64,000 bases of DNA from Vermamoeba vermiformis (lineage: Eukaryota): NCBI GenBank assembly GCA_045837725.1, contig JBEWZL010000266.1:62001-126000 (forward strand), in the 5' to 3' direction. Under the pieces are notes generated by a model. It was not told the DNA's origin, made no database searches, and saw only the letters and a program-made list of their open reading frames with translations. Numbering within the stretch: position 1 is the stretch's first letter; every line of letters starts with the position of its first letter. Below, piece after piece: positions 4,492 through 58,400 of this stretch. A program made the position numbers and the translations under genes.

Positions 4492-4738
4492 GCAAAAATT
4501 AAAATCGGTCTGATCGGGGTAGGTTCATCTCAACTTAACACCTGCATAAAAGTAATGTAATCTATTGATGCGTACTTCTAACGCTGACCGAGCGATATGG
4601 TGGCAAAACGGACTTGCCGCATTTTACCTTTTCTCCGTGCACCGGGAATCACACTCCGGATCCTAATGTACCGTTAAAAGCCGGTCATTTCGATCATTGT
4701 TCCAAGGCAATCAACAGAAAGCAGAAATCAAGACAAAA

Positions 4739-5635
4739 ATGTCAAACTCACGTGTCATTTTGATCACTGGTGCTTCGACTGGACTCGGGGCTGCAATGGC
4801 ATCGCAATTCTTGAAGGCTGGTCACATCGTTGTTGCTACTGCACGAGATGTTAGCAAAGTACTGCACTTTCAAGATCAACATCCTAGCAGAGCACTGGCT
4901 CTCAAGTTAGACGTAACCGATCCGAAACTGGTCAACGCCGCGGTGGAAGAAACGATTGCAAAGTTTGGTCGTATCGATGTCCTGATCAACAATGCAGGTT
5001 ATGGTCAGTTTGGCGCATTCGAAGAGCTGACAGAGAAGCAGATCCACGATCAAATGAACACGAACTTCTTTGGTCTGGTCAAAATGACTCAGAGAGTGCT
5101 GCCGATCATGCGCATTCAGAAGAGTGGTCACATCATCCAGATCAGTTCATCGGGCGGTCAGATAACAGTCCCTGGCTTGTCGATTTATCACGCGAGCAAG
5201 TTCGCGCTTGAAGGCCTGTCAGAAGCGATATCGAAAGAGACAGCTGCGTTCAATGTCAAAGTGACGATTGTAGAGCCAGGCGGTTTCAAGACAGATTTCG
5301 CTGGGAGATCGTTCCAACCTGAAGAAGTGAAATTGCCTGAATACGCTCCCAGTGTCGGAAAGGTGCGCGAAATGATCAATTTGTTGCACGGCAATGAAGC
5401 GGGAGACCCATATAAAGCAGCTGCTGCCATTCTCAAAGTGATCGAGTCTTCAAAGCCTCCTCTACGTCTTCTGCTCGGCACTGACGCCTATCAACTCGTG
5501 ACTCAAAGCAAAGTGCAACAGAATGCTGAGATCGAGGAATGGAAGCACGTGACGTTGTCTACTGACTTTGAGCACTTAAATACGAATGCGTTAGGTCAGG
5601 TCATGGACACCGTCAGCAGCGCTATGAATCGTTAG
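4739..5635 (+). CDS. Classical short-chain dehydrogenase/reductase, intronless
   Basis: TGASTGLG, NNAG and YHASK motifs; ATG at 4739 after an A-rich leader. Confidence 0.95.
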   Translation: MSNSRVILITGASTGLGAAMASQFLKAGHIVVATARDVSKVLHFQDQHPSRALALKLDVTDPKLVNAAVEETIAKFGRIDVLINNAGYGQFGAFEELTEKQIHDQMNTNFFGLVKMTQRVLPIMRIQKSGHIIQISSSGGQITVPGLSIYHASKFALEGLSEAISKETAAFNVKVTIVEPGGFKTDFAGRSFQPEEVKLPEYAPSVGKVREMINLLHGNEAGDPYKAAAAILKVIESSKPPLRLLLGTDAYQLVTQSKVQQNAEIEEWKHVTLSTDFEHLNTNALGQVMDTVSSAMNR

Positions 5636-26819: not shown

Positions 26820-27757
26820 TGGAGAGCTGCTTGTGATATATAAGTATTATTTGTAAATAAATGGTAGGTTAGTACTTAAATTATTATTACGACGTTCTAC
26901 TTACCAGCACGAATTTGCCATCCACCATTGTACCAGCAAGCTAATCGACATTATATACCTTCTGAACGAGGCCTATGGTGACACTGAAATTACTGCGTAA
27001 TTCACCGGATGTGCACAACTCAGCATTCTCGTTACATTTCCCGTAAGTTTCAACATTTCAAGTTATGCAAGGCTAACACCTGTATCTAAACAGAAAGCTG
27101 TCATGTCAAAGATTTCGATAGAATCCCGGACAAACCTGTCAAGCACTTGAATACATCATGACACGAGAATGTTTGTCTTTGGCAATTTAAATACAATCAT
27201 TATGAGTACGTATAACTTATATTCGCAATTTTAATATTAATTCTGCAATAGAATGAATCGTAGGAAGGTCGAGAACTACTTTCTCTTAAAAGAATTTTTT
27301 TTTTTGCTGCGAGTTTACGGAATAGGTACGTTATAATTGATGTCGCTTTATTACGTAAGGCTTAATCGGATCTAACACCTGCAATAGCGCAATATTTGCC
27401 GAAATAGCCAAGACTATAAAAGCCCGCAGTTTAATATAAATCACTCGCGCAAGATTTGCCGACAAAAAATCACCAAAATGAGGCAATTGCTATGCACAGA
27501 CTTCTTAGAATATTATTCTGCAGAAATTCGTGCGTAATCTCTCGTGTTGTAGCTGCATTTTGCAACCGAAGCGAGGATTTAAAGGAAAGAAATGCGACAG
27601 CAAACTCATTCAAACACAACTTGACAATATAGCACCACAAATAGCCTTACAACACGACTTTTAAAAGTAATCGTAAGAACTGACATCAGATCCAGCTCGC
27701 TTTTCGTAATTAATGCAGTATTTTAGAAACGAACCAGACCTGTTCGCAACACCAACA

Positions 27758-30409
27758 ATGCATCTGAAAGCAATTATTCCGCTTTTGATGCTTTCAGCAC
27801 TCTTCATCTTGCCGAGCACTGCATTTCTAATAGAACGAAAGACAATAACAACCGTCGATTGGACCGCTGACACTGGCTCTTTTGCAGCAATCACTGCTGG
27901 TCCTTATTCTCTCTTTGCAAACAACATTCAAAAGCCTCTCTACGCGTTCAATGCTGACTCTCATTCTGCCTCTATCATCGACGTCGTGCCACCTAACAAC
28001 TACACGTACACTGTTGTCGACAATGAGTTGGCGATCTTTAGCTCCGGAAGTCTTGCCGCTGATTGGCTCATTGTCTTCAACACGACTTCGCAGCAAACAT
28101 CAACGGTGAATGTAGCGCTATCGAACTACAACTACGCGATCACCGCTGTTGGCACCAAGGTATTCTTCGCTGGTGGCTATAGCTTGAGTAGTCCAACGAC
28201 AGTGACGGACTATGTTGGCATTTATGACACCGCTACTCAATCGCTGAGTTCTTCAGCACTGCCCGTGCCGCGAGTGGAGCTGACAGCGACTTCAGTCGGA
28301 GACTTCGCCTTGTTCGCTGGTGGTCGAAGCGACTCCGTTGGACCTTTTGAAAACGACGTCTTCATATTCAACACCGCGACGCAATCGTGGAGCAGTGCCA
28401 GTCTCAGTGCCGCAAGAAAGCTTCAGACTGTATCGATCGGTCAATTTGCAATCTTTGTGGGTGGAAATCTCGCAGACTTTTTCGACAGTAACACGCAAAC
28501 ATGGACCACTCACACGCTCAGTCAAGCGCCTACTTCAGTGTACGGCTTCAGTATCACAAAGGATCAGCGTTACGTGTTCTTTGTTGGTGCAGGAAGAGCG
28601 GATGTGTTCGACGTGCAAAGTCAAACTTGGTCAACGCTCGAAATCTCGCCTTCAACACCTGCTTCGTACTGTCCATCAACGATCGTCGACAACTATGCTC
28701 TATTTGCATGCGGTGATAGCATCGCAGTGTACAACACAGCAACTCAATCGTTTGTCCGTCGCATTGTGTTCGATATCTACGACAACGTCATGCTTCAAGC
28801 GGGCTCGATTGGAAAGGTCGCAACATTCCTTTGCGTTGAACCAGAAGACGCGCGCAGACTCTACGTGATGACATTTGACTTCACCACAGGTCCGCCACAC
28901 AGCACTACTGTCTCGCGTGTCATCAATCCCGCGCCAGTGACCGTGCAGCTGTCCACGCATCAAATTGCCGCGCCTCGTCCTCTCTACTACGTTGTCGCAA
29001 ACAAAGCCATCTTCGCGACGTTTGACAACAAAAGTGTTGACATCTACGACGCTGACACTGACTCGTGGTCCACTTCGCTCCCTGACATTCCTACTCGCGG
29101 TGCCATTCTGACTGTCACCGATGATTTTCTGGTGTTTTCTGACAGCGCAGAAGCAGTGTTGCACATTTTTAATGCCAATTCTCTGGTGTGGAGCAAAGCT
29201 TACTTCCCTGAGGGAGTGTCGCGCTACTTCACATCAGTAGGCAACTACTTGTTCTATTCTGGCAGCAACAACACTCTTGTGGTGTACAACATCGTCAACG
29301 ATACGTGGCTGTCATTCAGCGATCAGTATTGGCTCAGCAATGAATTCATCAACGCGCTCTCGTACAAAAATTACGCTGTCTTTGTGCAGCAGCTTATAAT
29401 GACGACCAGTGCGCCAGCCTGGGACACAGATACAATGACGCGCACTGACTTTTACTACGGTGGCGACGTACCCAGAAGATATCCCGCTTACGCTGTAGCA
29501 GGAGACTACTTGGTGTTTGGTGGTGGTCTGTTGGACGATGGTTCTAAGAACTACAGCACTTACTCGGCCGACTTCTCCATTCAAAACCCTCACACGGGCG
29601 AATACTACTCCGGACTCATGCCTAGCGAGCGTTACACACTTAACATTCTCTACGTCCATCCTCTAGTGATGTACATTGGAGGCTCGGTCATCGAATCATT
29701 CAACGTCGAGACACAACAATGGCAGACTAGCTTCTTGGACGTCGGTTACACGGATGAACGAATGATGACGGGCCATTGGATGTTCACCACGCTCGGAAGT
29801 CCCAACTATGTTATTCAGTTCGATTCGACCACGCTCTCTTGGACAAACATCACTTTTGCGGGTTCTCCCGTGGGAAAAATAGCAAAACTCGGTGACCTGG
29901 CGGCATTTGTCGACAAGACTAGCCTAGTGCTGTTCAATCCACACACTCAACAATGGACCAGAGCTCAGTTCTCGTCGGACAAACAGTTCGCACTTGCGTT
30001 CACTGTTGGTGACAAAGCGCTGATCATGTCAAGGGATGCCCGAACCATGCACGTGATACCACTCAGTCAACTGTCGAACACACCCGCACCGACACCCTCT
30101 AACTCCGTGCCATGGAGTCCGTGGATGCCTCCTGTCACAACGAACAGTCCGTCCTCTCCAAGCACTGCTCCTTCTGCTTCAACCACGCCGTCATATCCAA
30201 ACACACCCAGCACCCAAGCACCGCTCAGCAGTGCTCCCACACTTGTTTCGAGTCCCTCTTCATCATCGCCACCCGTTGTATCCTCTACGAGCGGTGTCTC
30301 TTCGCCAACGCCTGTTGAGGCACCAACCAATGAAGGCAACCTGAAAACATCATCTGCTTCGCTTTCTACGACCGCTGTCATCTCAATCGTCCTCGCAGTT
30401 TTAGTCTAA
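27758..30409 (+). CDS. Secreted/GPI-anchored Kelch-repeat beta-propeller protein
   Basis: Signal peptide from ATG 27758, repeats such as VGTKVFFAGG..VGIYDTATQS and ALFAGG..VFIFNTATQSW, Ser/Pro/Thr stalk, hydrophobic C-terminus. The longer ORF start (27713) lies in a probable 5'UTR intron. Confidence 0.85.
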   Translation: MHLKAIIPLLMLSALFILPSTAFLIERKTITTVDWTADTGSFAAITAGPYSLFANNIQKPLYAFNADSHSASIIDVVPPNNYTYTVVDNELAIFSSGSLAADWLIVFNTTSQQTSTVNVALSNYNYAITAVGTKVFFAGGYSLSSPTTVTDYVGIYDTATQSLSSSALPVPRVELTATSVGDFALFAGGRSDSVGPFENDVFIFNTATQSWSSASLSAARKLQTVSIGQFAIFVGGNLADFFDSNTQTWTTHTLSQAPTSVYGFSITKDQRYVFFVGAGRADVFDVQSQTWSTLEISPSTPASYCPSTIVDNYALFACGDSIAVYNTATQSFVRRIVFDIYDNVMLQAGSIGKVATFLCVEPEDARRLYVMTFDFTTGPPHSTTVSRVINPAPVTVQLSTHQIAAPRPLYYVVANKAIFATFDNKSVDIYDADTDSWSTSLPDIPTRGAILTVTDDFLVFSDSAEAVLHIFNANSLVWSKAYFPEGVSRYFTSVGNYLFYSGSNNTLVVYNIVNDTWLSFSDQYWLSNEFINALSYKNYAVFVQQLIMTTSAPAWDTDTMTRTDFYYGGDVPRRYPAYAVAGDYLVFGGGLLDDGSKNYSTYSADFSIQNPHTGEYYSGLMPSERYTLNILYVHPLVMYIGGSVIESFNVETQQWQTSFLDVGYTDERMMTGHWMFTTLGSPNYVIQFDSTTLSWTNITFAGSPVGKIAKLGDLAAFVDKTSLVLFNPHTQQWTRAQFSSDKQFALAFTVGDKALIMSRDARTMHVIPLSQLSNTPAPTPSNSVPWSPWMPPVTTNSPSSPSTAPSASTTPSYPNTPSTQAPLSSAPTLVSSPSSSSPPVVSSTSGVSSPTPVEAPTNEGNLKTSSASLSTTAVISIVLAVLV

Positions 30410-30483: not shown

Positions 30484-32755
30484 ATGACTACCTCAAACGA
30501 CGATAAACCGATAGCAGAATCATTGGCCAAGTTAGGAATTACTGTGGGCCCAAGCCAAGAGCCGGGTAAGAATTTCCTCAAAATTTTATTATTATTAATT
30601 TTAATATAGGTAGGATGCAATTATAATACTATCCTATTACGTAATATTGACTTATTGATACAAAATTTGTAGAGGACGACAATCAAGCGAATTAATTAAA
30701 ACAATTTTTAATAATTCTTTAGATTGCTTAATAAGTCTGGTGAATAGTGTGGCTCACTCTGCGGTAGAGCGTTCTGAGGCACGCTACTTCCGATATGCAA
30801 CGGCACCGCGGGATTCAGCCTGCAAATCTGTTTTGGAAAAGCTAAATTCAGTGCTCGGGCAATTAACACAATCCCCGCAACGAAACTCAAATGAAGGACC
30901 TTCTCCCACGCAAGCACCGCAAGCGTGGCATGTTCCTTGCATTTTCAACGGATCGGGATCGGGCAAAACGTTTTTCAGCCACTTTTTGCACGAGCACATT
31001 CTCGATTATACCGCAAAGAATACAGCGGTAATCGATCATAAAGACTCAAATTATACAGCTTATTAATTGATTTGTGACCAGGTTGCGCCGGACGTTTCAG
31101 CTTTCTTGCAAAAGCATCGAGTTTTGCGGGTTTGGATTGCACAATTTAATGGTCAGCAAGTACCACCAAATGAAACAGATATCAAACTTTACCTAGCTGC
31201 AGTTATTGCCTCACAGCTATTATTGGAAAAGCAGCGAACTGGTGTTCTCCGCGGTGCTTCGGTCATCACTTTGTTGCACAAGATCCGCGAAACAAAAACG
31301 GAGGGTCTGTTTACGGATAATTCAATATTATTACAAGCTATTAGAAGAGTACAAAGCATCCCAGACAACGAGCCCTTCTTAATACTTTTCGGTCACGACG
31401 AGATGCAGATGCTGACTGACCCAAAAGAACTGATGGGACTTGATGACGGAAAAAGACAGCAAAAACTAGTATACAAGTATATAGTCTCCGCCGTGGAATT
31501 CGCTACTGCTGCCGCTGCTCACAATGTAGGGGTTTTCAATTTGTTCACTGGAACGTTTCCTCTCAACTCTACAGTGTCGTTAGCACCGACAAAATATCAA
31601 TGGAGTCCTGTCACTTTCGATCCATTGACACCAGCTGACGGAATTACATTGCTGAAATCTCAACACCCGTCATTGAAGGAAACTTTAGAGGCAGCCAATA
31701 TAGCAACGCTATTAGAATTGTTTGGAAATGTTCCTCGCGTCTGGGAATTGTTTTCACGAGAGTTGGAAAAGAATTTAACGGCAATCTCGTCATCTAAATC
31801 GGTCGTTAAAATGTGCGATTCGTTTGCTCCGTGCGTTGAAAGATGGTCAATTCCAATACAGCAACTGCACGTAGCATTATTAGTACTGGTGCAAGGGTGG
31901 ACGCTAGCAGAAGTCAAGAGCCTGCAAAGACCAGAGATTGAGCGAGCTGTCATCAATCTTATTTACGACGGAAGACTATTTGCACGAGAAGATGGCAAGT
32001 TCTTCATACCAACCATTTTTCTGCGAAATTCAGTACGGGCATTAGACAACGAGGATCCCCGTCACGAGATATTCATCGAATATTTCAACGATTGTCTGAA
32101 CGGCAACTTCGATGACGGAGTATTCGAAAAGTTCTGCCTCGCCTTCCTCGTCATGAAGTACAACCTGTTCGTCAAATCCAAGTTTGACCGAGTGAGTCTT
32201 CAGCAAGTCTTTAGAGGATCTTGGATGAAGGAAAATACCAAAGGCCAGATCCGCATCGGTGACAAGCTGATTAGAGAAACTTACAGTACTACGCGCAACA
32301 TCATGACATCATTCAAAGATGTGCAGGTTGATGATGGTCTAAATAAGCGCAAATTCAAGGACATCAGAGATGCAATTCCGATTGCACTTTGGATCGGCAA
32401 AACTGATCCACACCAAGATGCTCTGCTGTTGTTACCTGATGACGTGTCAATCCATGTAGCGATGAAATTTTCTAGGACTGATGCTCAAGGATCGCTTTCG
32501 GGCGAATCTAACGGATCATTTGCGCACGAGCAACAGATGGCGGAGCAGAGTCCGGTTAAGCAGGAGAACAGCTACTTCATTTACATTACAAACCAATTGC
32601 TAACCGAAAAACCAGCGCAAAAAGAGGAAATACACCATCGATCATTCATTGTCTGCGCCAACAACTTCAGCGAGTTCTTCGGCGGAATTTTTCCATTTTT
32701 GACGTCAAAGTATTTTTTCGCTGGTGAATATGACTACGAAAGCTTGCAAAATTAA
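30484..32755 (+). CDS. Crinkler/RHS-like STAND-type P-loop NTPase with C-terminal restriction-endonuclease-like domain
   Basis: Walker A NGSGSGKT, Walker B LILFGHDEMQ, FTGT, LFGNVPR; C-terminal GVFEKF...HQDALL...VAMKFS. A 54-nt intron (31028-31081) joins the two ORFs. First exon junction uncertain. Confidence 0.7.
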
Positions 32756-33613
32756 ATATCGGTGCAATAAGTGTAATTGCCACTTTATGACCGGCTTGTG
32801 GACTTGTACAATACTGCGAAAGCGCTCTCCGGTAAGAGCCAGTTTCACTCGTCTAATTTTGGTCCAGCAGAGAAATTAATTGCGGGATTTTTGAACGAAA
32901 TTTTTACCTAACAAAACGATGTTAATTTTACTGTCCAATATTTTTACAAAAAATTTGGTTGGTCAAATAATAATAAAAATTTATTGGCGTTCTGATCCCT
33001 AGCGCGTACCAACACCTTGCAAATGCCGTGTAGTTGTAGACTTCGGATTTTCAGTAAGTTTCAAGCAAACTAGTTTACTGCGCGTCAGTTGTCAACATTG
33101 TCAATGTTATTGAATTGAGCGAGATCTCACTCAATTTGACCACTAGGCAAAGAGCGTTTCAGTTTCAAATTGTAGAGTCCTGATGATGCTGCTTAAATTG
33201 ATCACTGAAATAGCAACGACGACGTGCCGCGACCTCGTTGAAAAGGTAACATTCGGTCATTTTTTTTTTTTGAGTTGCAATGTTTACGAGCAACCAACAC
33301 TACTAATTACAATCAGGCTCTTTATTAAGAGCACCTTCGTGCAAGAATTGCGAAGAGACCAAGACTTCAAATGCAATGTAGAGAATTTGCTAGAAATTTA
33401 AGTGCGATCTCATGAAGTATACCAACTGCAATGGAATTTAAAGCTTTAGACGGCAATAGTTGACAGTATCATTTACAATCATTGACAATTACACCACAAA
33501 AGTACTGTAATACTTGAGGTAAGTACGAGCCAGATCTATTTTGATGGTTACTCGTTCTCACACTTATAACTTTAGCATCATAAGGACTACAATATTACAA
33601 ACCGCGAACAACA

Positions 33614-35191
33614 ATGCATAAAAAAGCTGTTACTATGCTTATGATGCTGTCAAGTCTCTGTGTCTTACCTAGCTGTGAATCCACCGCTCAAAGCGACACT
33701 TTAGTCTCCCGGGTCATCAATCCCTCGCCAGTCTCAGTGCAACTAGCCACTCATCAACTCACTTCATCACGTCCTTTATTCTACTCAGTCGCAAACAAGG
33801 CTATCTTTGTCAGCAATGATGAGACAAGTGTTTACATTTATGACGCCGGCACTGACTCGTGGTCTACGTCATCACCTAACACAGCCTCTCGTGGCGATGT
33901 CTTATCTGCTGCTGACGACTACTTAGTGTTCACTGACAAGGCTGACGGGGCAGTGCTTCATATTCTCAATGCCAACACTGTGACATGGACGACAACTACC
34001 CTCTCCGAGCGAGTGAACAGATACCACCAAACAGTCGGCAACTACATCTTCTACTCTATTAGCTATAGCTACACTCTAGCCGTGTATAACATCGCTAACA
34101 ACACTTGGCTCTCGTTTGAAGAAGAGTACGAAATGGCTGAAAATGTCATCATTCCGTTCAAGTACCAAACATACGTGGTATTCTTCTTCCGTGCCCGCAG
34201 AACAGGCTACCTCACTGCATGGAACACAGCTGGCGACTTGACGCGCACTCGTTTTGACTACGGAGGAGAGTACCGCCTGTTTCCGTCTGCGGGCGTGGCA
34301 GGAGACTACTTGGTGGTGGGCGGAGGAGTGCTTGAAACCACGTACTCGGCTGATTTCTCTGTTCGCAACCCTCACACTGGCGAGTATTACTCTGGAAAGA
34401 TGCCTACTGCTCGTTACTTGTTGACCTTTCTGTACGCCGATCCTCTGATATTGTTCACTGACGGCAATCTCACTGAAGCATTCAACGTGGAGACGCAACA
34501 ATGGCAGACAATTGTGTTGGAGATTGATATCTCAAACACACGCGTGTCAACGGGCCACAAGCTGTTCATGACTTACAGCGGTCAGAACCACGCAATCGAG
34601 TTCGATTCGGTCAAACTGACTGACAGTCAAACTTGGTCAACCATCAGCTTTTCCGGCTCCAGTGTTGGACCAGTCGTCAAACTCGGTGACTTGGCAGCAT
34701 TCGTTGACAGCGATAACATCGTGCTGTTCAATCCACACACTCAACAATGGACCAGAGCTCAGTTCTCGTCGGACAAACAGTTCACGAATGCTTTCGTTGT
34801 TGGTGACAAAGTGGTGATTGTGTCGAGTGATGAGCGAACCGTGCATGTCACAGGCCTGGCTCAACTCTCGTCCTCAGCACCTACGCCCACTCCCGCCACA
34901 CCTACATCAGCGCCAAGCACTCCATTGCCCTCCGCTCCCTCGACAGTGCCGTGGAGGCCGTGGACGATGCCTATTCCGAGCACACCGCTCGCTAGCACAC
35001 CTACCACTAGCAATAGCCCAGTACCTCTTCCAAGTCCGGTGTCTTCGTCGCCCGTGGCCTCTCCGAGCAATGGAAATGCCCCGGCGGTCGTTGCACCGAA
35101 GAGCGACACCAGTCTGGAAGTCAAGTCGTCAGCCTCACTTTCTGCTTCGATCATTTCATCCTTGATTGCTGCTACTGTGGCTTTGTTGTAA
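33614..35191 (+). CDS. Shorter Kelch-like surface protein paralog (signal peptide fused to C-terminal half)
   Basis: After the signal peptide it aligns with the 27758 protein from VSRVINP onward; keeps the stalk and hydrophobic tail. Confidence 0.85.
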   Translation: MHKKAVTMLMMLSSLCVLPSCESTAQSDTLVSRVINPSPVSVQLATHQLTSSRPLFYSVANKAIFVSNDETSVYIYDAGTDSWSTSSPNTASRGDVLSAADDYLVFTDKADGAVLHILNANTVTWTTTTLSERVNRYHQTVGNYIFYSISYSYTLAVYNIANNTWLSFEEEYEMAENVIIPFKYQTYVVFFFRARRTGYLTAWNTAGDLTRTRFDYGGEYRLFPSAGVAGDYLVVGGGVLETTYSADFSVRNPHTGEYYSGKMPTARYLLTFLYADPLILFTDGNLTEAFNVETQQWQTIVLEIDISNTRVSTGHKLFMTYSGQNHAIEFDSVKLTDSQTWSTISFSGSSVGPVVKLGDLAAFVDSDNIVLFNPHTQQWTRAQFSSDKQFTNAFVVGDKVVIVSSDERTVHVTGLAQLSSSAPTPTPATPTSAPSTPLPSAPSTVPWRPWTMPIPSTPLASTPTTSNSPVPLPSPVSSSPVASPSNGNAPAVVAPKSDTSLEVKSSASLSASIISSLIAATVALL

Positions 35192-47156: not shown

Positions 47157-49444
47157 TTAGGGCCTATACTTCTCCAGCATCGTGCACACTTGCTCCATTT
47201 CCTGCAATATAATTATGAGACAAAATAATTTAAATACGCGGGGTTTAGAAACTTACTGGACGAGCACTCGGATCCGCTTGGAAGCACATGTTGATGATAT
47301 TCTTGTACACTTCATTGCAGTCTGTTGGGATTTTGGGGGTCTTATTGCTCTTCAGCTCGAGAGCGACTTCCAAAACATCGTTGATGTCATTGAATGGCTG
47401 CTCCCTGTTTAAAATTTCTGTCATCACAACACCAAAGGACCACACGTCTGACTTGGTGCTGTATTTTCTGTTGCGGATAGCTTCAGGTGCCTGGAGGTTA
47501 ACGAGGTTAGTACGAGCGGCATCGAATGCCTCGTGCACGTGGCACTTACCATCCAACGAATAGGACCGATGTTAGTCTTCGTCGTTCCTTCTTGAATGGT
47601 TGATTCAACAATTCTAGACATGCCAAAGTCAGAGATCTTGGCTTCACCATCGCCAGACAGCTAAATACGCTCAGTTAGGCACTGAGAAGAATACGAGCAC
47701 GTGACACGTACCAAGATGTTTCTCGCGGCCAAGTCTCTGTGCACAATGTTGTTCAAGTGCAAGTGCAACAAACCCTTCGCAATGCCGAAGATCAAGCGGT
47801 GCTGATAAGCTGGTGTGATCTTCTTTGACTTGTTGAACAATGTCTCGTCGAGGCTGCGGCCAGGACAGTACTCTAAAATGATTGCTGGTGCTTGACCATC
47901 AGTGCTGACACCAAGCACTTGCAACACGTTGGGATGTGGACGAATGTTACTGCAACCGAATTAGACACCAACGTTTGACACGTGCCATGCAGAACTTACA
48001 CCATGATGCGAGCCTCCTTTTGGAACTCTTCAGTGGCGCCAATGCTGTTGCTCACTTTAATGGCGACTTGAGTGCTCTGCCACGTGCCCAAATAGACCTT
48101 GCCAAATGCACCTGAACCGATTTCTTGTTTGAACACGAGTCTGCTCCATGGGATCGCAAATCTATCGTCCAAGTTGACGGTCTGGTTGTTCGGCGATAGT
48201 GCTTGGAACGACGGGTTCATTGATGCACCACTGCCAATGACATCGACGCCCGTGTAGATTGTCGGAGTGGTTGATTGTGGCTGCAAAGGCACGTCGTCAT
48301 TGGGCTTGTTGCTCTTCTGACCGCTGCCTGACTTCTTGCGCTTGTTTCGACGCAACAACAAGATGACCAGCACAACTGCTCCAGCAGCTGCAATCGGCAA
48401 AGAGACACACAATCCGACGATCAATGGTATGTTAGGTGGGGTGTCAGGCGCACCGCTGGGCTGGTCGGTGCTGGTCGAGTTTGCTGTGGAAAAAGTCAGT
48501 TGAAGGAGCTATTTTTAGTACCAATTGACGTACTCAAATACGTGACATTGGCAGTAATGGACCCCATAACTAGTACTGAGGGAACTCCTGCGTTTGCGAC
48601 GGAATACAATACGGTCAAGTACGTGTTGGGAGCGTTCTTGAAATTAATGTCATTGATCGTGTAGGTGACACTGACGAAGTTCAATCAGTTAAGAAAATAT
48701 TAAGTATGTCGAGGATAATTACATTTTCTGGGTGAAGTCATTAGAACCCGAGACAGACTGCTTAGTCCCGGTCCAATTGCCTGTGGAATTGGAGATGATC
48801 GCATATTGGACCACATCCGAATTACTATTCTCATTTTCTCCGAAACGATCCAAAGTCAGGACCATACTAGTCGTAACCTCGCCCTCTGCAGCAGGTACTC
48901 TTATGAGGCAAAGCAAAGGCATTGACGTCCTTGCAAAAGTACTAACGAACGAGACTTGTGCCAAGTTACCGGTAGACGGTCCCCACTTGAAGTAAGAGAA
49001 ATTAGCGAATTCAAAACCAAAAATCAAAGTCCAACTTACCACAGGTCTACTATCCACCGCGGGTTCAAAATTGTAGAAGCAATCCGAAGCAGAAACTGAC
49101 ACTGTAGCTGTTCTATTCATTAAGCTCTGCGCGATGCAGCTCTCCACCTAATAATACGAATTTAGCTTACAGGATCGCTATTCTATGCTAATTACAGTGC
49201 AAGACTGCTCTTTTGTCGTTCGACACCGTAAAGTTAAAAAAAGATTCTTGTTCGGCAGATAAGTTAAAATAAATGACATTAATAATACGGTTCGTGAGCA
49301 CTACATCGAATTAATAAAATCGGTATTAAATAAATGTAAATTCCAATTTAATGGATCTTTGACACCTACGAGACATTGGATTAGCACTACACAGCAGAGA
49401 TGACGCCATAGCTTAGAATTGATAACATTATTTACGCCAGGCAT
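47157..49444 (-). CDS. Single-pass receptor kinase (TKL/tyrosine-kinase-like); start approximate
   Basis: N-glycosylation-rich ectodomain, TM IVGLCVSLPIAAAGAVVLVILLL, GSGAFG, VAIK, HRDLAARN, DFG, GPIRWMAPE, SDVWSFG. Confidence 0.9.
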
Positions 49445-49681: not shown

Positions 49682-51495
49682 TTATTCTTTCTTTGTCTTT
49701 ACACTTTCTTTACGGCTGCGTAACAAGGATCTAACCGCTCCGACAAACAATATCAGAATCAAAATACTTGCCACAACCTTCAAGATAATCGCGTAAATGC
49801 CGAATACTGGTAATATGTAATATTTAGGCACGTTAACTTCGCATTGCTGAATTTTCAGTATTTGGTTCGGAAGATCCTCGCTAGGTTTGAACGACAAGTC
49901 TGACAATCTAATTTTCTCTTGCCAAACAATACTGCCATTAACCGCATCGTGTGCCTGAACGGTAACCGTTACGGGGGATGCATTCCAGTCAATATCAATA
50001 GAGCCGAAGTTTCTCTTAGCAAAGAACGGCTCCACCTAAATGACAGGTTAGATCAGGCTCCAAATCATCAAAGAAGCTTACGTGATACAAATGCTTGAAG
50101 AATTTGTTGATAAAGAAGTCGCAGTAGACGACGTTAGCATCGCACGAATGCGTTAGACCGCTGCTCGTGAACTCGTAGATCGGATAGCCCAGATCCGAGC
50201 AATTCAGACCAACTTTCATCTTCTCAGCGTAATGCACATCACCGCTCAAAAATATGACGCCCCTATGATCGAGATCAGATATCGTGCCATATTTAGAGTC
50301 GTGGACATGTAGTGACTTACGGGGTCTGTTTCTCTTTCAGCAATTTGAACAGTCTGTACCGACTCTGCGGATGATTGGCCCACTTTTCACTCAATGGTTT
50401 GTCTGCGGGCAGAACTTGAATGCCAGAACCAATCAAGTGGATCTAAACGGCTAGGTTAGTACAGGATATTATTAATGGTATGACTCTAATACCTGTGCAT
50501 CGCTGTCAGTCAATTCGTTCTCGAGCCACTTCCATTGATCTTCGCCCTACATTCATAAGTCTGTAAATTTCATCGAACGCGAATAAGAGGGACAAATAAT
50601 GACGTACGAGCAAATCACCGAGTCCGTGAGTGCCTTCTTTGTGATATCTGACGTCTAATAATAGTACTTTGACCTTCTGGCCTCTATATAACGCGTTGTT
50701 AATCGCGTACAATGATTTCTGGTCGATTCTAATGGACGTACTTAGGACCGAAAGAAAATGAGCCATAAATTCCTTCACGGTTCCAACGAGGGCTGAAAAA
50801 CTAACATTAAGCACGAAGTGGATACCAACAAGTGATAATAACTACTTGCCTGTCCTTAGGCTCGTCCAAAAAGTCTAGGAAAAGTTGTTGACTGCCTTGT
50901 TTGTTCGGGTACTCGCCCCCACCGTCATTTTTGCCATAATCGTGATCGTCCTAAATAAAGTATAGTGTCAATATGAGCAAGTAATAGTACGATAAAACTT
51001 TTCATGAATGTCAAACAGAAATCGTGACGATTCATTTTCCATACCCAAACTCCAATGATCTTAGTGTCAGATTGAAGAAGTTTTCGATATTCTGGACGTT
51101 CTTTTTGAGCATTTAACTTGAATTCAATGTCTTGGAGACTTGCGTAGGCCCGTAAAAATATTTTTAAGACATTATCAGCACTGAAAAATTAATTAATAAT
51201 TCAGAAACAATTAGTAAACGAGCAACATCATGATCTCTATATTGGAGATCATATAAAGGTGATAATAAAAATATGTAACGTACTAGACAGTGTCGCCAAG
51301 CCAAATAAACAAGTCTGGATTCAGATCTACAATATGTGCCCAAGCAGGCTGAGGTCTGTCGTGTTTATTACACGAGCCAAATACTATTCTTTGCAGTTTA
51401 TTATCACTTTGAAATTCTTTGGCGGCATCTACTTCCGATTGAGCATGGATGCAGGTTGCCGCAAGCAGCAGCAGCGCTATATACACTCCTCGCAT
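49682..51495 (-). CDS. PhoD-family alkaline phosphatase with C-terminal membrane anchor
   Basis: Signal peptide, [50 protein letters not shown], hydrophobic tail. Confidence 0.93.
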
Positions 51496-51565
51496 GGTCT
51501 TGCTTCGAGGGTTCTATTTTAATAAATTAAAATAACCCGAGCATTGTGACGTGGTGTGCTGATGT

Positions 51566-51590
51566 CGGGCCGAAATCACGTGATGGCCCG
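51566..51590. promoter_or_regulatory. Candidate E-box palindrome upstream of the PhoD gene
   Basis: CGGGCC-gaa-ATCACGTGAT-GGCCCG about 80 bp before the ATG; similar TCACGTG(A) cores at 3081, 26048 and 54360 upstream of other ATGs. Confidence 0.4.
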
Positions 51591-51687
51591 GTATTTTATG
51601 GAGCACCGATGACGCGTCGCAATCAACGTCAGTTTAAATATTAAGAGATCATCAACAATGATGGATTATGCACGTTTATTAGGGTGT

Positions 51688-53907
51688 CTATTCAACTTGC
51701 ACGACTTGAATCATATTCGTCTGTCGCGCAATAACACTACCAACTCCGTCCTCAGCGACTTCTAAATATGGAAAGTCAGTTCATGACTCGCGGATATAAA
51801 TAACCAAATTGTCAACGTACCGTGCTTGTGTTCCACGTCCAAGCTGATGTCACCAGCAATCGCTACGACGTGTTCGCCAGGCAGCACGAGCTCCAACTCC
51901 TTGGCCTTGATGACGGCTTGTTTGACCACATCGAGCATCGACACTTTGACCGTGCTCTTCTCGTCAATCACGTACGGCACGACACCGAAGCAAGAGAGAG
52001 ATGAATTAGCAACCTCTTGCTTGGTAGTCACTGCTAGAATAGGGCAATGAGGTCTGTATTTAGACACCAATCGCGCAGTGTCTCCGTTCTCGCTCAATGC
52101 AATCAACAATGTCGCGTCCAAATCCCACGCTGTCTTGACAGCACTCGAGGCCATTGACTCGGCGAACGAGATTTCAAAGTTGTAGTCTTGGATGGATTGG
52201 TGACGAATCACGTGATAGCTTTGCAAAAATTTAGTTAGTGGAACGGAGTGAGTACCTAGGTGAGACTTACATGTCACGATACTTGAGGATCTTTTCTACT
52301 TCAAAGCACTGCTTCAACACAATCTTCACACTTCTCACGGGCCACAATCCTTCAGCGGTCGTGTTCGTCAATGCAAAGCCGTCGACACCGTCAAACACGG
52401 CATTGGCAATGTCGGTTACTTCGGCTCTATAACGTCGTTAGTTACAAGCCCAATATAACCTCATTCGGTAACACTTACCTTGTGGGACGAGGGTTTGTAA
52501 TCATCGAGTTGATAATTTGATTTGTTACAATAACTGCATCACTGTGAGTACGAGTTATCTTGTCACACGAACATTTCCTTACCTGGCTTGCCAGCAAAGT
52601 TGCATTTTCTGATGGTGTTCTTTTGCACGTGTGCGATCTACGTTGAACGTGAGAAAGATGTACAAGATAAAGGTGAAACAATGTACATACGTCTTCGAGA
52701 GGCAAAACCATGGCAATACTAGAACGAGCAATGATCACTCCGTCGACTAATTTCAACATCTCATCGAACTGCTGTACACTCTCACTGCACGAATAAGTCG
52801 TTAACCACTATAATTACAACAGGACTGTTTAGTCCGTACCTGCGATCGACCTTGACGAACACATTGATCGAGGCGTTCTTGGCGTGCAATGCTTTCTTGA
52901 GCTGTGTAATGTCATCCGCGCACTGAGCAGTGGTGCAAATGAAGTCAAAGCCGTGAGTGATTGCAAACTCAATGTCTTTCTTGTCCTTCTCTGTGATCCA
53001 ATCGATGTTCAGCGGAACAGGCATGCCAGTCTTGCCCTCGACAAGATGCACAATCTTACGTGGCATCATCACACTGTCGTTGTCTACAATAGTCGTCACC
53101 ACTTCAGGGGTCACTTCGGTCACTGTGCAGCCCACGGCATTGTAGTTCAACACAATTTTGTCACCGACTTTCAAATGCTTGTGTAAATCGGCGAATTCAA
53201 TGTGCATATCCTTTTCATCGCCTTCAATAGGCTTGGCATGGAAACGAAGTGTTTGACCCTTCGACAAAGAAACCTACGGAGATCCAATTTGTTATTTCTG
53301 AATCTTTTTTTTTGCGGCTCTTGGCTCTTACCTTTTCTAGACCGTTTTTAAAATAGCCAAGACGAATTTCAGCGTTCTGCACGAATAAAGTGTCAGCAAA
53401 ATCCTCCATCTGCACTTCTGCATAAAAGGAAAAATTTTCCTAAATATCTGCTTACTCTTAAATCGCCAAGTATAGCAATATTCTTCTTCGTAAATTCGCG
53501 GGCCTTTTGAATGTTAGTTACAATCTCTTGGGCAAATTCGTGAGTTGCATGGCTAAAGTTGAGACGTGCGATCGACATTCCAGCTCGTGCTAGGTCACTA
53601 AATATAATATTAGCTCAAAAAATATTCATGCTAAATCTAAGCCAGTCTAATTTAAGCATACGCTGAGTCTGTCCATTCAATAAATAGTAAATCCAATTTG
53701 AAAATGTGTGTTATGCTTTACGGGCTAGTCTGAAAGTTGTAGACATTGATAAATATCGTACCTCAAAACTTCAACAGATCGCGAGGCAGGGCCAATAGTG
53801 CAAATAAGCTTCGATTTGACGCATCTGTGAATCCAATTTCTCTCTTTGATCTCAGCAGGGTCTGTGAAATCGAAAATACCCGTCGGTTCGGTTGATGTAT
53901 GCAACAT
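51688..53907 (-). CDS. Pyruvate kinase homolog with degenerate active site
   Basis: KLICTIGP, IARLNFSH, NPRPTRAEVTDIANAVFDG, TARLVSKYRP; but KVD, ARSSIA, VTNQ and LTNTT replace KIE, ARGDLG, ATQ and LSGET. Confidence 0.9.
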
Positions 53908-53962
53908 TGTGTGTGGAAGTAACAGGTAATTATTAAAAGATAAATTTGAAAATTTTCTGTTT
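53831..53962. repeat. 132-bp direct repeat, copy 1 (PK 5'UTR and first ~26 codons)
   Basis: Matches 55244-55375 with 2 mismatches. Confidence 0.95.
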
Positions 53963-54494
53963 GATTTTTTGTGCCTTACTCGCGTACATCAACATTTCGT
54001 GATAAACCCCGAAGAGCATAAGCACATAAGTACCCAACCAACATGTAATAGCACATGGATTTGTTTAAGGATATAAAGGCAAGATTCTAGTGAAACGCGA
54101 ATGGTTCTAGATAGATTTGCGAGATAACGATAGCAACTAAATTTTAAAATGATATAGAATGCCAAAAAACTATTACGTTAGCGGATTCATTTAATATTAA
54201 TTATTTAACATTATTATTAATAATTAATTGATTTAAATTGAAAATTTCTTTTTTCATCTAGACCGAAGCCAATTACTCTGCCAAAATGTCGATAATTAGC
54301 AATAATGACAGCTTCATAATGGTACTAACTCGTAGGCCGTAAGTAAAGACGCAAAATCATCACGTGCCAATTTCCTTTATAGCCAAATTTCTGCCCAAGA
54401 AAAACGCAGAAATTTTGTGCGGCAACGCATATCAAACAAGAACCGAAGTAGAAAGAAGCAATGCAACCTACTTAGATCCCTGAAAAAGAAGAAA

Positions 54495-55024
54495 ATGTCT
54501 GACGAAGAAAATAAATCAGGCGATACACAGTCATACCATTCAGATGAAGATAAGAACGCTGACAACTTGGCAGCCACGACACCTGCAGTCTCGGCACCGA
54601 TCGGCCGGTTTGTACCCTCTGCAGACGAGTCAGATAAAAAGCGTAAAGCCGACTCAATTCTCGATGGCAGCGAGGGTAATACTTTACAAATTATTCTCAA
54701 ATAACTTCTTAATTGTTCAGCAGACGAACGTCGAAAAAGACGCAAAATCGATCCGCAAGAGCTGAAAGAGGAGATAGCTCTCGCGGGAACTCGCTACCAG
54801 ATAGACTTGGTAACGCAACGGTCAGTACTATTTAATTTTAATTTATGTAGTACTTACTGGATCCATCCGGATTTAGGGTTGCCAACCTTGAAGAAGAACT
54901 GGAAAATCTAGAGGCTAAAAAGGCTGACATTACGCAGCAGATCGACTCGTATCGACTTCTACTCGGTGAACTCCAACAAGGGTTACAAGCGCGTCAACCG
55001 GTACCCTCGAATAATAACCAGTAG
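54495..55024 (+). CDS. Small coiled-coil protein with NLS-like basic motifs, 3 exons
   Basis: MSDEENKS...KKRKAD, RRKRRK, heptad-like VANLEEELENLEAKKADITQQIDSY; canonical introns; TAG at 55022-55024. Confidence 0.65.
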
Positions 55025-55243
55025 TCGTTGTATTTGTAGCTACCAATTTTGTAAACTACTTGTATGTTTTTGGTCGCTCGATATAAAACGAACTATTCGC
55101 CCAGTCCTAACGAATCTGGGCGTCACCCAATAGAACCACTGAATCACCCTGTGCTGCCTTAGTATCGCTTGCTTCGAGCATTGCCGAGTCTGTCTCGCCG
55201 TCATTGTTCTGTTTGGTTCTAGATCTGGTTCTTTTCCTCGGTG

Positions 55244-55375
55244 ATCCAATTTCTCTCTTTGATCTCAGCAGGGTCTGTGAAATCGAAAATACCCGTCGGT
55301 TCAGTTGACGTATGCAACATTGTGTGTGGAAGTAACAGGTAATTATTAAAAGATAAATTTGAAAATTTTCTGTTT
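55244..55375. repeat. 132-bp direct repeat, copy 2 (orphan copy of PK 5' end)
   Basis: Encodes MLHTSTEPTGIFDFTDPAEIKERNWI on the minus strand, then diverges and stops. Confidence 0.95.
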
Positions 55376-55464
55376 TTTGTTCGCAGCTTCAGTGGATTTC
55401 GAAAGTAACGCGACAATACTATTTCGCGATGAAAACATGATAACACAATCGAACATCTTGCAAT

Positions 55465-58400
55465 ATGGAAAAAGATAATCAGAGCGAAGATGAAGGACTT
55501 CCTCAAGAAGTAAGATCTCGTGTCAACCTTAGCGATCAAAGTCATGCACGAATTAACCCTACAATTATAGATCATAAATGGATACGAATGTCTATTGATT
55601 TGTGCATTGCTCCCAATCTGTAAGAGAATCGGTCCCGAATTCAATTATTTTTAAAAATAGAAAATATACCACCCTTCATTAGCTTCGTAATACACTTCAT
55701 TTTATGCCTTACTTCTCAAATAGCCACCGGTTATTTATTTGTATTTGTTTGGGTGCTTCTAGAATTTTATTTATGTTTCTTGAGAATCTTTTTTGACTTG
55801 TTAATAACACAACTAAATAAGGACTATTATGCACCATTATTCTAATTTTATCGTCTATTCTATAATTTGGCAATACTTATGTTCATCAGATCTAATTTAT
55901 TCATTCAGCTCGTCATCACGGTCACATGTGCCGTCTTGCCCGGAATGATTTCGAGCTATTACGCACTAAATTTAATATGCCACTCGAAGTACACGAAGAA
56001 TGTTACAAACAAGCATTAAAGCTTAGTCCGGTACACGAGATCCGATCGTATTCGTAAACAGTACTAATGACTCTTAAATAGCTTCTCCCTAGCCAATTTA
56101 AATACCTCGTTAAGCTTATCGACGAAAATAAGCCGTTATTAGCCCCCGGTGATTTCGAGGTACCAAATTTTGCTGTCAAAAGTGTCATTTTATGCTTATA
56201 CTTTATCTTAGGCCGAAACTAAATATGAATCATACAAAGAAGAAGAAAAGCAAGAGTTATTGGATATACTAAATAGGCTAAATAACAAAGACGAACTCAA
56301 AACTCAGATCTACATTCAGGCACTTGACGCTATGCATATTCCTCTGAAAGGTATTAATAGCTCTTGTATCCTTATGAACCGTACTAATTAGGTATTAGAG
56401 AAAGAAAAAAACGGCTTTGAAGTGGTTTGCAGCTTTAAAGTCGGCGAGCAACGAATCAAATCAAAACCCTTTCCAGTGGATGAACAAGGCAATGTCGAGC
56501 TAGAAGAGGACTTCGTATTGTAAGTCTAGCCACTATATTGTAAAGAAGCTTATTTCGTTGTTCAGTGACTTGCCAGCGAAGATAACACCGACAACGCAAA
56601 TTTCATTCAAGTTGCGCGAGAGCATGAAACAACGCTCAGTGTGTGAAGGTTCAGCACCTTTAGCGCAATACGTAGCTGAAAAACCATCGAAGCCGACAGG
56701 TATAATATACAATAATGTGCTAATATCCTCTAATCAATTGTTGTAGTCTTACAGGTACCGATGAAGAAGCGATCTGGCTTCTCTGAAAACAGTCTGTCAC
56801 GAAGCTTGAGTTCATCAATGGACGATGCCAATGGCAAAAGCTTGTCAAAATCAGCGAGCGTTGTGACAGGAGGTCTGTTGCGAACAATTGTGCACGTGAC
56901 ACGCCGTGAATTTGTTGACGTGGAAGTGTTCAACTTGAACTTGACCAATCCGCGCTTGACTGAACTAATTGAAATGGACCATTATCCACTCTCAATGGTG
57001 AGTAGCTCTATTTTTACCATTGGCTACTAATAATCTGTGCTTAGGTCTTTGTTCCAGTGCTCGCAACCTCTAATGACCCTGCCTTGGAGTGGCTCTTGAA
57101 CGAATACATTGAACGATTCCGCATATCCAAGACATACGTCAAGTTAATGTACGATCTATAAGCGCCTATATTAGTCTATTATTAACACTTCTGTTAGCCT
57201 GTGCGAGTACTTGCTTCGAAAACTCACGTACAAACTGCACGATGTGCAACACTTGCTTAAGGCCTTTGAAGACGTGACTATGGCTATACAAGAGAAGAGC
57301 CACAAAATCACCAAACGAGAGGTATGCGATATACTTGCGCCCTATATACCAACGCAGCTAACAATGCACAGAAAAATCAATTCTTGTCACTGTTGTCAAA
57401 TGCCTCCTCGATCTTAGACCACGCATTCAGCACGGTGTTAGAAACATTCAAGTTATCAGAGCCAGGCACATTCAAAACGGCTTTAAAGTTGTTCGAACTA
57501 GTGCAGTTCGGCAACAGCAAGATGACCTCGTTGTTGAAAGACACATTTAATGTGGGCATGGTGAACTACTACAATCAATGGAGCGAGCAGGTGTTTGACG
57601 CTTATCCCGACAACAACTTGAAAGCATTGCGCGTGCTGAGTGACAAGATGATTCAGACTTTAGTGGACATTGACGACTTTGACGACGAGATCGAAGAGTA
57701 AGTGCTGCAAGTAGTATAATATTATATATATTGACTAATGTGGCTATAGTTTGAAGCTTTCTTTGGCTAAAATTAGTGCCGAAGTATTCCGTGTGAGATT
57801 TGAACAAGATCTGCGGACTAAAATGGAAAGTCAACGCGCAGTCGAACAAGAAATGAAATCTATGCAAAGTAATCAACACGCTGAAGTATTTGACTTATTT
57901 GAAAGAGTGAAAGAACTAGATAGGCTCTGTACAATTAACTCCAAGTACGTACCTGGCCAATAACTATCGTGAAAGACTAACAATTTGATCACAGGAATAT
58001 ACCGCACATTCCTTTCGAAGAAATATTTGATCATTTTATTGGCCTTTTCGTTGAAGAACAGAAAGACAACCTGACAAAGTGGGCTATCAACATCTTGTCC
58101 TATGAGAAGGTACGGTGATTTTAATCGATGACTAGCATTTATTTAACCCGTATTGTTAGTGGGAAATGATCACCAAAGGCAAGATCAAGTACTCAAACAG
58201 TGTCGTGGATCTGTTCTCTTCATTCGCTCAAATCGCAGAGATGATTGTCGACATGAATGTCAGTCCTGTCAAGCACATGAATAACTTCTTGAACGTACGT
58301 ATATGAAGCAATATACAGTGATAATATTGACACGTTGACAGCTGGTTTGCGAGACTGTTGATCTCTTTGCCACGCAACTGATCCGCTTCATGTTCGAAGA

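What the first reader, a model, noticed from the sequence alone, without database searches (positions are those of the whole stretch)
51688..53907. Intact but probably catalytically dead pyruvate kinase (pseudoenzyme)
Seen: full A/B/C domain gene with no stops or frameshifts detected, yet DTKGPEIR reads DLRNAEIR, KIE reads KVD, ARGDLG reads ARSSIA, ATQM reads TNQI and LSGET reads LTNTT. Known (PKM numbering): E272 and D296 bind the divalent metal, G295 and T328 contact substrate, S362/E364 line the active site; these are near-invariant. The NPRPTRAEVTDIANAV segment near the subunit interface is retained. Inference: a regulatory subunit, metabolite sensor, or enzyme with changed chemistry.
Basis: partly seen in the sequence, partly recalled or inferred. 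Interest (0 to 1): 0.7.

Follow-up and report, generated by a model that had tools for sequence, protein, structure and literature searches.

The report
Conserved dead pyruvate kinase of amoebae
An amoeba keeps, beside two normal pyruvate kinases, a spliced and strongly conserved copy whose catalytic site has been rebuilt in the same way in a whole undescribed group of such proteins, so it probably regulates the last step of glycolysis rather than performing it.

Summary
Confirmed and extended. The gene is a 10-exon eukaryotic gene encoding 532 aa without internal stops. All 9 introns are spliced out in public runs, and dN/dS is 0.05 against a related locus. The genome holds four pyruvate kinase (PK) loci: two canonical and two degenerate. 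The degenerate pair belongs to one clade of 12 sequences, 34-74% identical, with 100/99 support after the motif columns are removed. Its only named member is from the amoebozoan Vermistella. The clade lost E364, G295 and S362 once; the metal ligands E272 and D296 were then lost 4 and 3 times independently. The window protein lacks all six core residues; 277 of 292 other PK hits lack none. It keeps the phosphate/nucleotide-side residues and the A-A interface, including R342, which in PKs props up the neighbouring subunit's active site. Best reading (0.5): a non-catalytic subunit that tunes a canonical PK. Loss of activity and binding are predicted, not measured. No paper found describes the clade; the scan noted only unrelated bacterial PK-like genes on other DNA.

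The parts
51688..53907 (-). PK-like (PKL) gene, 10 exons, 532 aa; A, B and C domains complete
   Evidence: splicing; fold of the 90%-identical relative P0121
53762..53907 (-). exon 1 (aa 1-49): N-terminal extension and first barrel strand
53456..53597 (-). exon 2 (aa 49-96): RLNFSH motif with R60/N62/S64/H65 (PKM R73/N75/S77/H78) and D94 (D113), all retained
53332..53376 (-). exon 3 (aa 97-111): NAEIR, with E99 (E118) and R101 (R120) retained
52840..53273 (-). exon 4 (aa 112-256): B (lid) domain with K184 (K207); KVD with K252 (K270) kept and D254 in place of E272 (codon 52847-52845)
52691..52784 (-). exon 5 (aa 256-287): ARSSIA; R276 (R294) kept, S277 for G295, S278 for D296 (codons 52726-52718). 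The following phase-0 intron position is shared only with the second PKL paralogue
52583..52637 (-). exon 6 (aa 288-306): interface helix with Q292 and K293
52479..52533 (-). exon 7 (aa 306-324): TNQI with N310 for T328 (codon 52522-52520); NPRPTR up to R324 (R342)
52271..52426 (-). exon 8 (aa 324-376): AEVTDIANA interface helix; LTNTT with T344 for S362, N345 for G363 and T346 for E364 (codons 52368-52360)
51821..52218 (-). exon 9 (aa 376-509): C domain; effector loop reads SENGDT
51688..51761 (-). exon 10 (aa 509-532) and stop codon
55244..55375 (-). 132-bp, 98.5%-identical partial copy of 53831-53962 (5' flank and first 25 codons); the frame stops six codons later; not part of the working gene
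   Evidence: no laid sequence in the bin 55236-55372

Best explanation
The protein is a pyruvate kinase pseudoenzyme that works as a non-catalytic subunit. Shown: an intact, spliced gene under purifying selection; a PK fold; two canonical PK genes in the same genome; loss of all six residues of the metal, carboxylate and proton-transfer half of the site; retention of the phosphate/nucleotide/K+ half and of the large (A-A) interface. Inferred: it co-assembles with a canonical PK (most likely the C101 type) across the A-A interface. Its R324 (PK R342) reaches into the partner's active site and shifts the partner between low- and high-affinity states. Its own rebuilt pocket may still bind ADP/ATP or a PEP/pyruvate-like anion, coupling that shift to energy or carbon state. 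The mixed oligomer also has fewer working sites, so its expression alone would turn PK flux down, for example when the amoeba runs gluconeogenesis; that physiological step is speculation. I put loss of the PK reaction at about 0.9 and the mixed-oligomer mechanism at 0.5.
For: Residue table. Lost in the clade: G295 to S/T in 12 of 12, S362 to T in 12 of 12, E364 in 12 of 12, T328 to N in 11 of 12. Kept: K207, K270, R294, Q310, R342, E344, D347, N350 in 12 of 12; R73, N75, H78, D113, R120 in 8 of the 8 members long enough to have them. On the careful tree G295, S362 and E364 change once, E272 four times and an acid at 296 three times: repeated loss of the metal ligands is what a non-catalytic clade should show. 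The segment most like the canonical paralogues is the interface, aa 306-340: 63% against 39% and 37% overall. R342 acts on the adjacent subunit's active site, and its mutation kills the Leishmania enzyme (PMC3467265, passages); the same arginine tunes cooperativity in pneumococcal PK (PMC10338316, passages). dN/dS is 0.052 overall and 0.032 in the second half of the barrel. A model of P0121 with the canonical relative P0149 scored 0.82 against a best control of 0.39. That mark was reached by 51 of 78 solved and 2 of 108 mismatched microbial pairs; the runs agreed in at least 96% of contacts, partner pLDDT at least 87. The interface was A-A, with R324 touching partner residues 261, 273, 296 and 297.
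Against: The complex pass is weak evidence: PK tetramers are solved many times over and close cousins pass by likeness (10 of 12 in the tool's test). A conserved A-A interface fits homo-oligomers or a PKL-PKL pair equally well. Six of 12 clade members keep both E272 and D296, which leaves room for a changed reaction in the clade. The fixed replacements (S295, N328, T362, N363) may mean a ligand pocket that works without any partner PK. No co-expression, localisation or binding data. Host organisms are unknown for 10 of the 12 members, so co-occurrence with a canonical PK is shown only for this genome.
Confidence: 0.5

Rival explanations
1. Stand-alone metabolite sensor or scaffold. PKL forms its own oligomer, alone or with the second PKL of this genome, binds a nucleotide or PEP/pyruvate-like ligand in the rebuilt pocket, and signals to a partner other than PK.
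For: The replacements are fixed across proteins 34-74% identical rather than random. Two PKL subtypes coexist here, each with an orthologue elsewhere (P0135, P0143; 100/99). In aa 271-305 the window protein is closer to other PKLs (66-71%) than to the canonical PKs (43-46%).
Against: The helix carrying R342/E344/D347/N350 has stayed canonical while the site next to it changed, as expected if it must keep fitting a canonical partner. No fused signalling domain in the full-length members seen.
Confidence: 0.25
2. An enzyme with changed chemistry: for example an ATP-dependent kinase of a hydroxy-acid, or a decarboxylase, that needs the phosphate and nucleotide contacts but not the enolate proton relay. 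PK side reactions of this kind are recalled, not checked here.
For: The residues lost at the clade stem (E364, S362, G295, T328) are the enolate-handling ones (roles recalled). R73, K270, R120 and K207 are kept, and 6 of 12 members keep E272 and D296.
Against: The window protein has D at 272 and S at 296, and the second paralogue has Q and S, so neither has the normal divalent-metal site. The two ligands were lost 4 and 3 times independently, which argues they are not needed in the clade.
Confidence: 0.17
3. A slow but real pyruvate kinase in which the new residues (D254, S278, N310, T344, T346) compensate for one another.
For: Fold and many substrate contacts are intact. D for E and T for S are conservative. 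JGI labels the relatives 'pyruvate kinase', though automatically.
Against: E364 is kept in 292 of 292 other hits and no other hit loses more than three of the six core residues. Two canonical PK genes are present.
Confidence: 0.06
4. A decaying duplicate with no function.
For: Long branch (0.88 changes per column); a broken partial copy lies 1.4 kb away.
Against: dN/dS 0.052. Of the 38 best-supported variant sites listed (140 more not shown), 28 are synonymous and 10 change a residue, none at a motif residue. The motifs are conserved to 34% overall identity.
Confidence: 0.02

Closest known systems
Canonical pyruvate kinase (EC 2.7.1.40; Pfam PF00224 + PF02887), K+-dependent Glu117 cluster; best solved matches Plasmodium falciparum and Toxoplasma PKs (7Z4R, 3KHD, 3EOE) and mammalian PKM
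   Same: A/B/C architecture and fold (pLDDT 90.5, Foldseek E about 1e-56, TM 0.80-0.87); 33-39% identity; R73, N75, S77, H78, D113, E118, R120, K207, K270, R294 and R342 equivalents kept.
   Different: E272, G295, D296, T328, S362 and E364 are all replaced, as are the lid aspartate (Y/F in 12 of 12 clade members against D in 285 of 292) and M330. The PYK-SubstitutionOME paper states that no known homologues lack the canonical activity (PMC10176505, passage).
Drosophila testis-expressed Pyk-like paralogues (Pykl genes; PMC11836677, PMC10755183)
   Same: Divergent PK paralogues beside a canonical PK; those with the 'like' suffix are called pseudoenzymes on missing residues, and a modulator role is suggested.
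   Different: They are insect, testis-biased and highly divergent (two at 21% identity or less). I did not align them; they did not appear among the named best hits, so an independent origin is inferred, not tested. Here the replacements form a fixed signature across a deep clade of a unicellular lineage.
Non-catalytic regulatory subunits derived from a catalytic paralogue, such as yeast NAD-isocitrate dehydrogenase IDH1; also the heteromeric alpha/beta plastid PK of plants (both recalled, not checked)
   Same: A paralogue keeps the fold, the interface and part of the ligand site and sets the kinetics of the active subunit.
   Different: For those, co-assembly is shown; here it is only modelled. 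As I recall, plant PK subunits keep the catalytic motifs.

Membership tests
Pyruvate kinase family (fold and homology) | PK barrel with inserted lid plus PK_C domain | tested here: met
   Pfam PK and PK_C hits on exons; model and Foldseek on relative P0121
Active pyruvate kinase | Divalent-metal ligands E272 and D296 | tested here: not met
   D254 and S278; roles recalled; the helix's role in metal/oxalate binding seen in PMC4448766
Active pyruvate kinase | RGD helix G295 and T328 (carboxylate contact, proton relay) | tested here: not met
   S277 and N310
Active pyruvate kinase | S362 and E364 of LSGET | tested here: not met
   T344 and T346; E364 kept in 292 of 292 background hits
Active pyruvate kinase | PEP-phosphate, nucleotide and K+ residues R73, N75, S77, H78, D113, E118, R120, K207, K270 | tested here: met
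   all nine kept in the window protein; T114 is L and K115 is R
Active pyruvate kinase | PEP + ADP to pyruvate + ATP activity | not testable with these tools
   needs an assay
Pseudoenzyme | Intact, expressed gene under purifying selection | tested here: met
Pseudoenzyme | An active homologue exists in the same genome | tested here: met
   loci on contigs C101 and C216 keep all six core residues; their activity is inferred from motifs
Pseudoenzyme | Measured absence of catalysis | not testable with these tools
   predicted from residues only
Regulatory subunit of a heteromeric enzyme | Co-assembly with the catalytic paralogue | tested here: inconclusive
   model passes (0.82 against best control 0.39), but a pass is expected from likeness to solved PK tetramers
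Drosophila Pykl group | Common ancestry with the insect paralogues | not tested
   insect sequences were not fetched or aligned

The most novel reading that the evidence does not exclude
An ancient amoebozoan branch of pyruvate kinase, predating the split of tubulinean and discosean amoebae, was converted once into dedicated regulatory subunits. They keep the nucleotide half of the active site as an energy-charge sensor and use the cross-subunit arginine to switch a partner PK, a mode of PK control by a dead paralogue not described for any organism. The alternative for members that keep the metal ligands is a PK-fold enzyme with a new reaction.
Probability: 0.3. Interest if true: 0.8.

Novelty: new variant of a known kind. 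Interest (0 to 1): 0.62.

Why it matters
Pyruvate kinase is among the best-studied allosteric enzymes. A 2023 survey says no known homologue lacks its activity (PMC10176505); the exceptions I found in print are sequence-based predictions for insect testis paralogues. A conserved clade with a fixed, rebuilt site gives a natural series from 'metal site intact' to 'all six residues gone', in which the step from enzyme to regulator can be tested. If the mixed oligomer is real, it adds a subunit-based way of controlling the PEP-pyruvate node in amoebae. It also means automatic 'pyruvate kinase' labels overcount active copies in these genomes.

Tried and rejected
Artefact of wrong splicing: rejected, junctions seen in laid sequence. 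Convergence or long-branch grouping: nine motif blocks were dropped before tree building and the clade held. P0164 (Vermistella) is a long branch, so the deep-age claim leans on one unsure row. Prokaryotic or viral origin: the signature DNA pattern gave 1 hit in GTDB genomes and 0 in viral contigs. The GTDB hit and 4 of 6 metagenome hits are near-canonical PKs or chance matches with ARGD/ARGN and LSGET-like motifs; only L017 and L020 are clade members. The run search listed no holder on record as RNA; the laid raw RNA reads of X21 are from a relative 85-95% alike and unstranded. The clade was not seen among named NCBI/UniRef proteins, but only the best 120, 120 and 150 hits of three searches were listed, so absence from Acanthamoeba, Dictyostelium or Entamoeba is not shown. 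Paper searches that found no description of the clade: (open-access library only). One search found no open paper on the T328/S362/E364 mutants, so those roles are recalled. PMC8481833 gave nothing useful. Earlier scan notes by sequence were unrelated. The ESM Atlas tool was not used, since the family is known.

Full report
Gene structure. The window is eukaryotic DNA with short introns. The finding is a minus-strand gene of 10 exons: 53907-53762, 53597-53456, 53376-53332, 53273-52840, 52784-52691, 52637-52583, 52533-52479, 52426-52271, 52218-51821 and 51761-51688. They give 1599 nt and 532 aa with no internal stop. Exons hit Pfam PK and PK_C. Four public runs from four studies were laid on 51400-55500 (4 of the 23 listed). 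All nine introns are skipped, each in at least two runs. Three runs are assembled contigs guessed to be RNA; one is a recorded RNA-Seq run whose 199 laid reads come from a relative mostly 85-95% alike. The gene is therefore transcribed and spliced as modelled, in close relatives at least. No intronless copy was found in the genome.

All are present. With PKM numbers (recalled; the Cryptosporidium paper PMC3467265 uses the same numbers for E272, R294, G295, T328, R342 and S362), the protein has D for E272, S for G295, S for D296, N for T328, T for S362 and T for E364. As background I took the hits that were 400-650 aa long and outside the clade: 292 proteins, with shorter or longer hits and cluster members left out. 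These six positions are kept in 287, 291, 285, 282, 288 and 292 of 292. 277 proteins lose none and none loses more than three. In contrast R73, N75, S77, H78, D113, E118, R120, K207, K270, R294, R342, E344, D347 and N350 are all kept. An AlphaFold2 model of the 90%-identical database protein P0121 has mean pLDDT 90.5 and matches solved PKs at TM 0.80-0.87.

Genome context. The genome (43.3 Mb, 309 contigs) has four PK loci by two Pfam searches. My models of those on contigs C101 and C216 keep all six core residues. The one on C84 reads KVQ, SRSSIA, ANQILNSM and LTNTT, the same replacements as the window gene, at 48% identity. The two degenerate genes share one intron position that the canonical genes lack. 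The genome also has a PEP-utilising enzyme locus (PF02896; PPDK or PEP synthase, not resolved). The nearest relative of the C101 enzyme whose organism I could read is from Echinamoeba exundans (98/92), so the host is probably an echinamoebid amoeba. Vermamoeba is my guess, from recall and untested.

Selection. A metagenome locus (L017) holds the orthologue with the same intron positions over 425 codons: 88% amino-acid identity, dS 1.28, dN 0.067, dN/dS 0.052; 0.032 in the second half of the barrel and 0.083 in the lid; aligned introns are 56% identical. All six replaced residues are the same in both. Of 38 listed variant sites from the runs (140 more were not shown), 28 are synonymous.

The clade. 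Three protein searches and one DNA pattern scan gave 12 distinct members including the two from this genome, 34-74% identical. With nine motif blocks removed from the alignment they form one clade: SH-aLRT 98 among 41 rows, and 100/99 among 30 rows in the careful tree. The window protein pairs with P0135 and the C84 protein with P0143, both 100/99, so both subtypes exist in other species. Only P0164 has a named source, Vermistella antarctica; it is a long branch. Clade-wide: G295 to S/T 12 of 12, S362 to T 12 of 12, E364 lost 12 of 12, T328 to N 11 of 12, lid aspartate to Y/F 12 of 12, M330 to I/V 12 of 12. On the tree G295, S362 and E364 need one change; E272 needs four and an acid at 296 needs three (two degenerate non-members were left out of that count). 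Six of 12 members still have both E272 and D296. The picture is two steps: the enolate-handling residues were rebuilt once, and the metal ligands then decayed repeatedly. A few degenerate PKs outside the clade also turned up (10 of 292 lose two or three core residues), so loss has happened elsewhere too.

How it most likely works. What is lost is the metal, carboxylate and proton-transfer half of the site (roles recalled; PMC4448766, passages, ties that helix to metal and oxalate binding). What is kept is the phosphate, nucleotide and K+ half (PMC10338316 names the arginine and lysine that hold the PEP phosphate; PMC5501398 ties E117 to K+ dependence) and the large interface. Residues 306-340 are 63% identical to both canonical paralogues against 39% and 37% overall. 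The invariant R324 equals PK R342, which reaches into the adjacent subunit's active site and whose mutation abolishes activity in Leishmania PK (PMC3467265, passages). A protein that has lost its own chemistry but kept the residue that completes its neighbour's site is best explained as a subunit of a mixed oligomer. A model of P0121 with the C101-type PK P0149 scored 0.82 against a best control of 0.39; the mark was reached by 51 of 78 solved and 2 of 108 mismatched pairs; contacts agreed at 96% or more and partner pLDDT was at least 87. The interface was A-A with R324 on the partner's R261 region. Because PK tetramers are solved and close cousins pass this test, the result shows that the surfaces are compatible, not that they bind. 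The same conservation would serve a PKL-only oligomer. I give the mixed-oligomer regulator 0.5, a stand-alone sensor 0.25, changed chemistry 0.17, residual PK 0.06 and decay 0.02.

Against the reading. Nothing was assayed. Half the clade keeps the metal ligands. The window protein's effector site looks weakened too: an acidic SENGDT loop, and loss of an arginine that 10 of 12 members keep. Any sensing is therefore more likely at the old active site than at the C domain. Hosts are unknown for 10 of 12 members. The clade's age rests on one long branch.

Comparison with what is known. PMC10176505 (passages) says no known homologues lack the canonical activity. PMC11836677 (first 10,000 of 14,183 characters) names Drosophila Pyk-like paralogues as predicted pseudoenzymes; its Extended Data, which list the residues, were not read and could show overlap with the positions lost here. 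PMC10755183 (passages) gives their low identity and testis expression. Searches found no description of an amoebozoan PK-like clade or of a PK regulated by a dead paralogue; the library lacks most subscription papers. Earlier scan notes report a degenerate bacterial PK paralogue and a PK-like barrel on other DNA; I did not test them and they are not this clade by their own description.

Verdict. A real feature and a member of the PK fold family, but not of the active PKs by residue tests. It is a new variant of a known kind (pseudoenzyme paralogue), unusual in being a conserved clade with a fixed replacement signature in a textbook enzyme. Interest 0.62.

Noticed in passing
window 55244-55375 (-): Recent 132-bp partial duplicate of the gene's 5' flank and first 25 codons (2 mismatches), followed by a stop; no laid sequence covers it.
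   Followed up: partly
G000:C84 (L015, - strand): Second PK-like pseudoenzyme gene, 504 aa, 9 exons by my model, with Q at E272 and S at D296; its orthologue P0143 keeps both.
   Followed up: yes
L014:2762-2822 (canonical PK on C101): One intron appears to use a GC donor; not checked against reads.
   Followed up: no
window 54076-55101: A spliced transcript on the + strand lies head to head with the PK-like gene, about 170 bp from its start codon (joints in run X1); product not identified.
   Followed up: no
window 27710-30409 and 33584-35191 (+): Two intronless paralogues (67% DNA identity over 1180 bp) with a signal-like start, repeat-rich body, Ser/Pro/Thr-rich tail and hydrophobic end, like surface-anchored proteins.
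   Followed up: no
window 17487-18020, 20851-21342, 23841-24335 (+): Three related exon-sized frames, suggesting a tandem gene family.
   Followed up: no
window 4667-5635 (+): Intronless short-chain dehydrogenase-like frame of 322 aa in an intron-rich genome (family from recall); possible lateral transfer or retrocopy.
   Followed up: no
window 31067-32755 (+): Intronless 562-aa frame between the two surface-protein paralogues; it reminds me of Crinkler/RHS-type NTPase-nuclease proteins (recall only).
   Followed up: no
window 47245-49147 (-): Receptor-like tyrosine-kinase-type gene (transmembrane segment plus kinase motifs) near the PK-like gene.
   Followed up: no
proteins P0168, P0171, P0178, P0207, P0218, P0276: Other PK homologues lacking two or three core residues; P0168 (labelled Pigoraptor chileana) and P0171 fall outside the clade in the tree, the rest were not placed.
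   Followed up: partly
protein P0125 versus window 51820-51762: One database relative ends in a translation of the last intron, suggesting intron retention or a calling artefact; spliced joints dominate.
   Followed up: no
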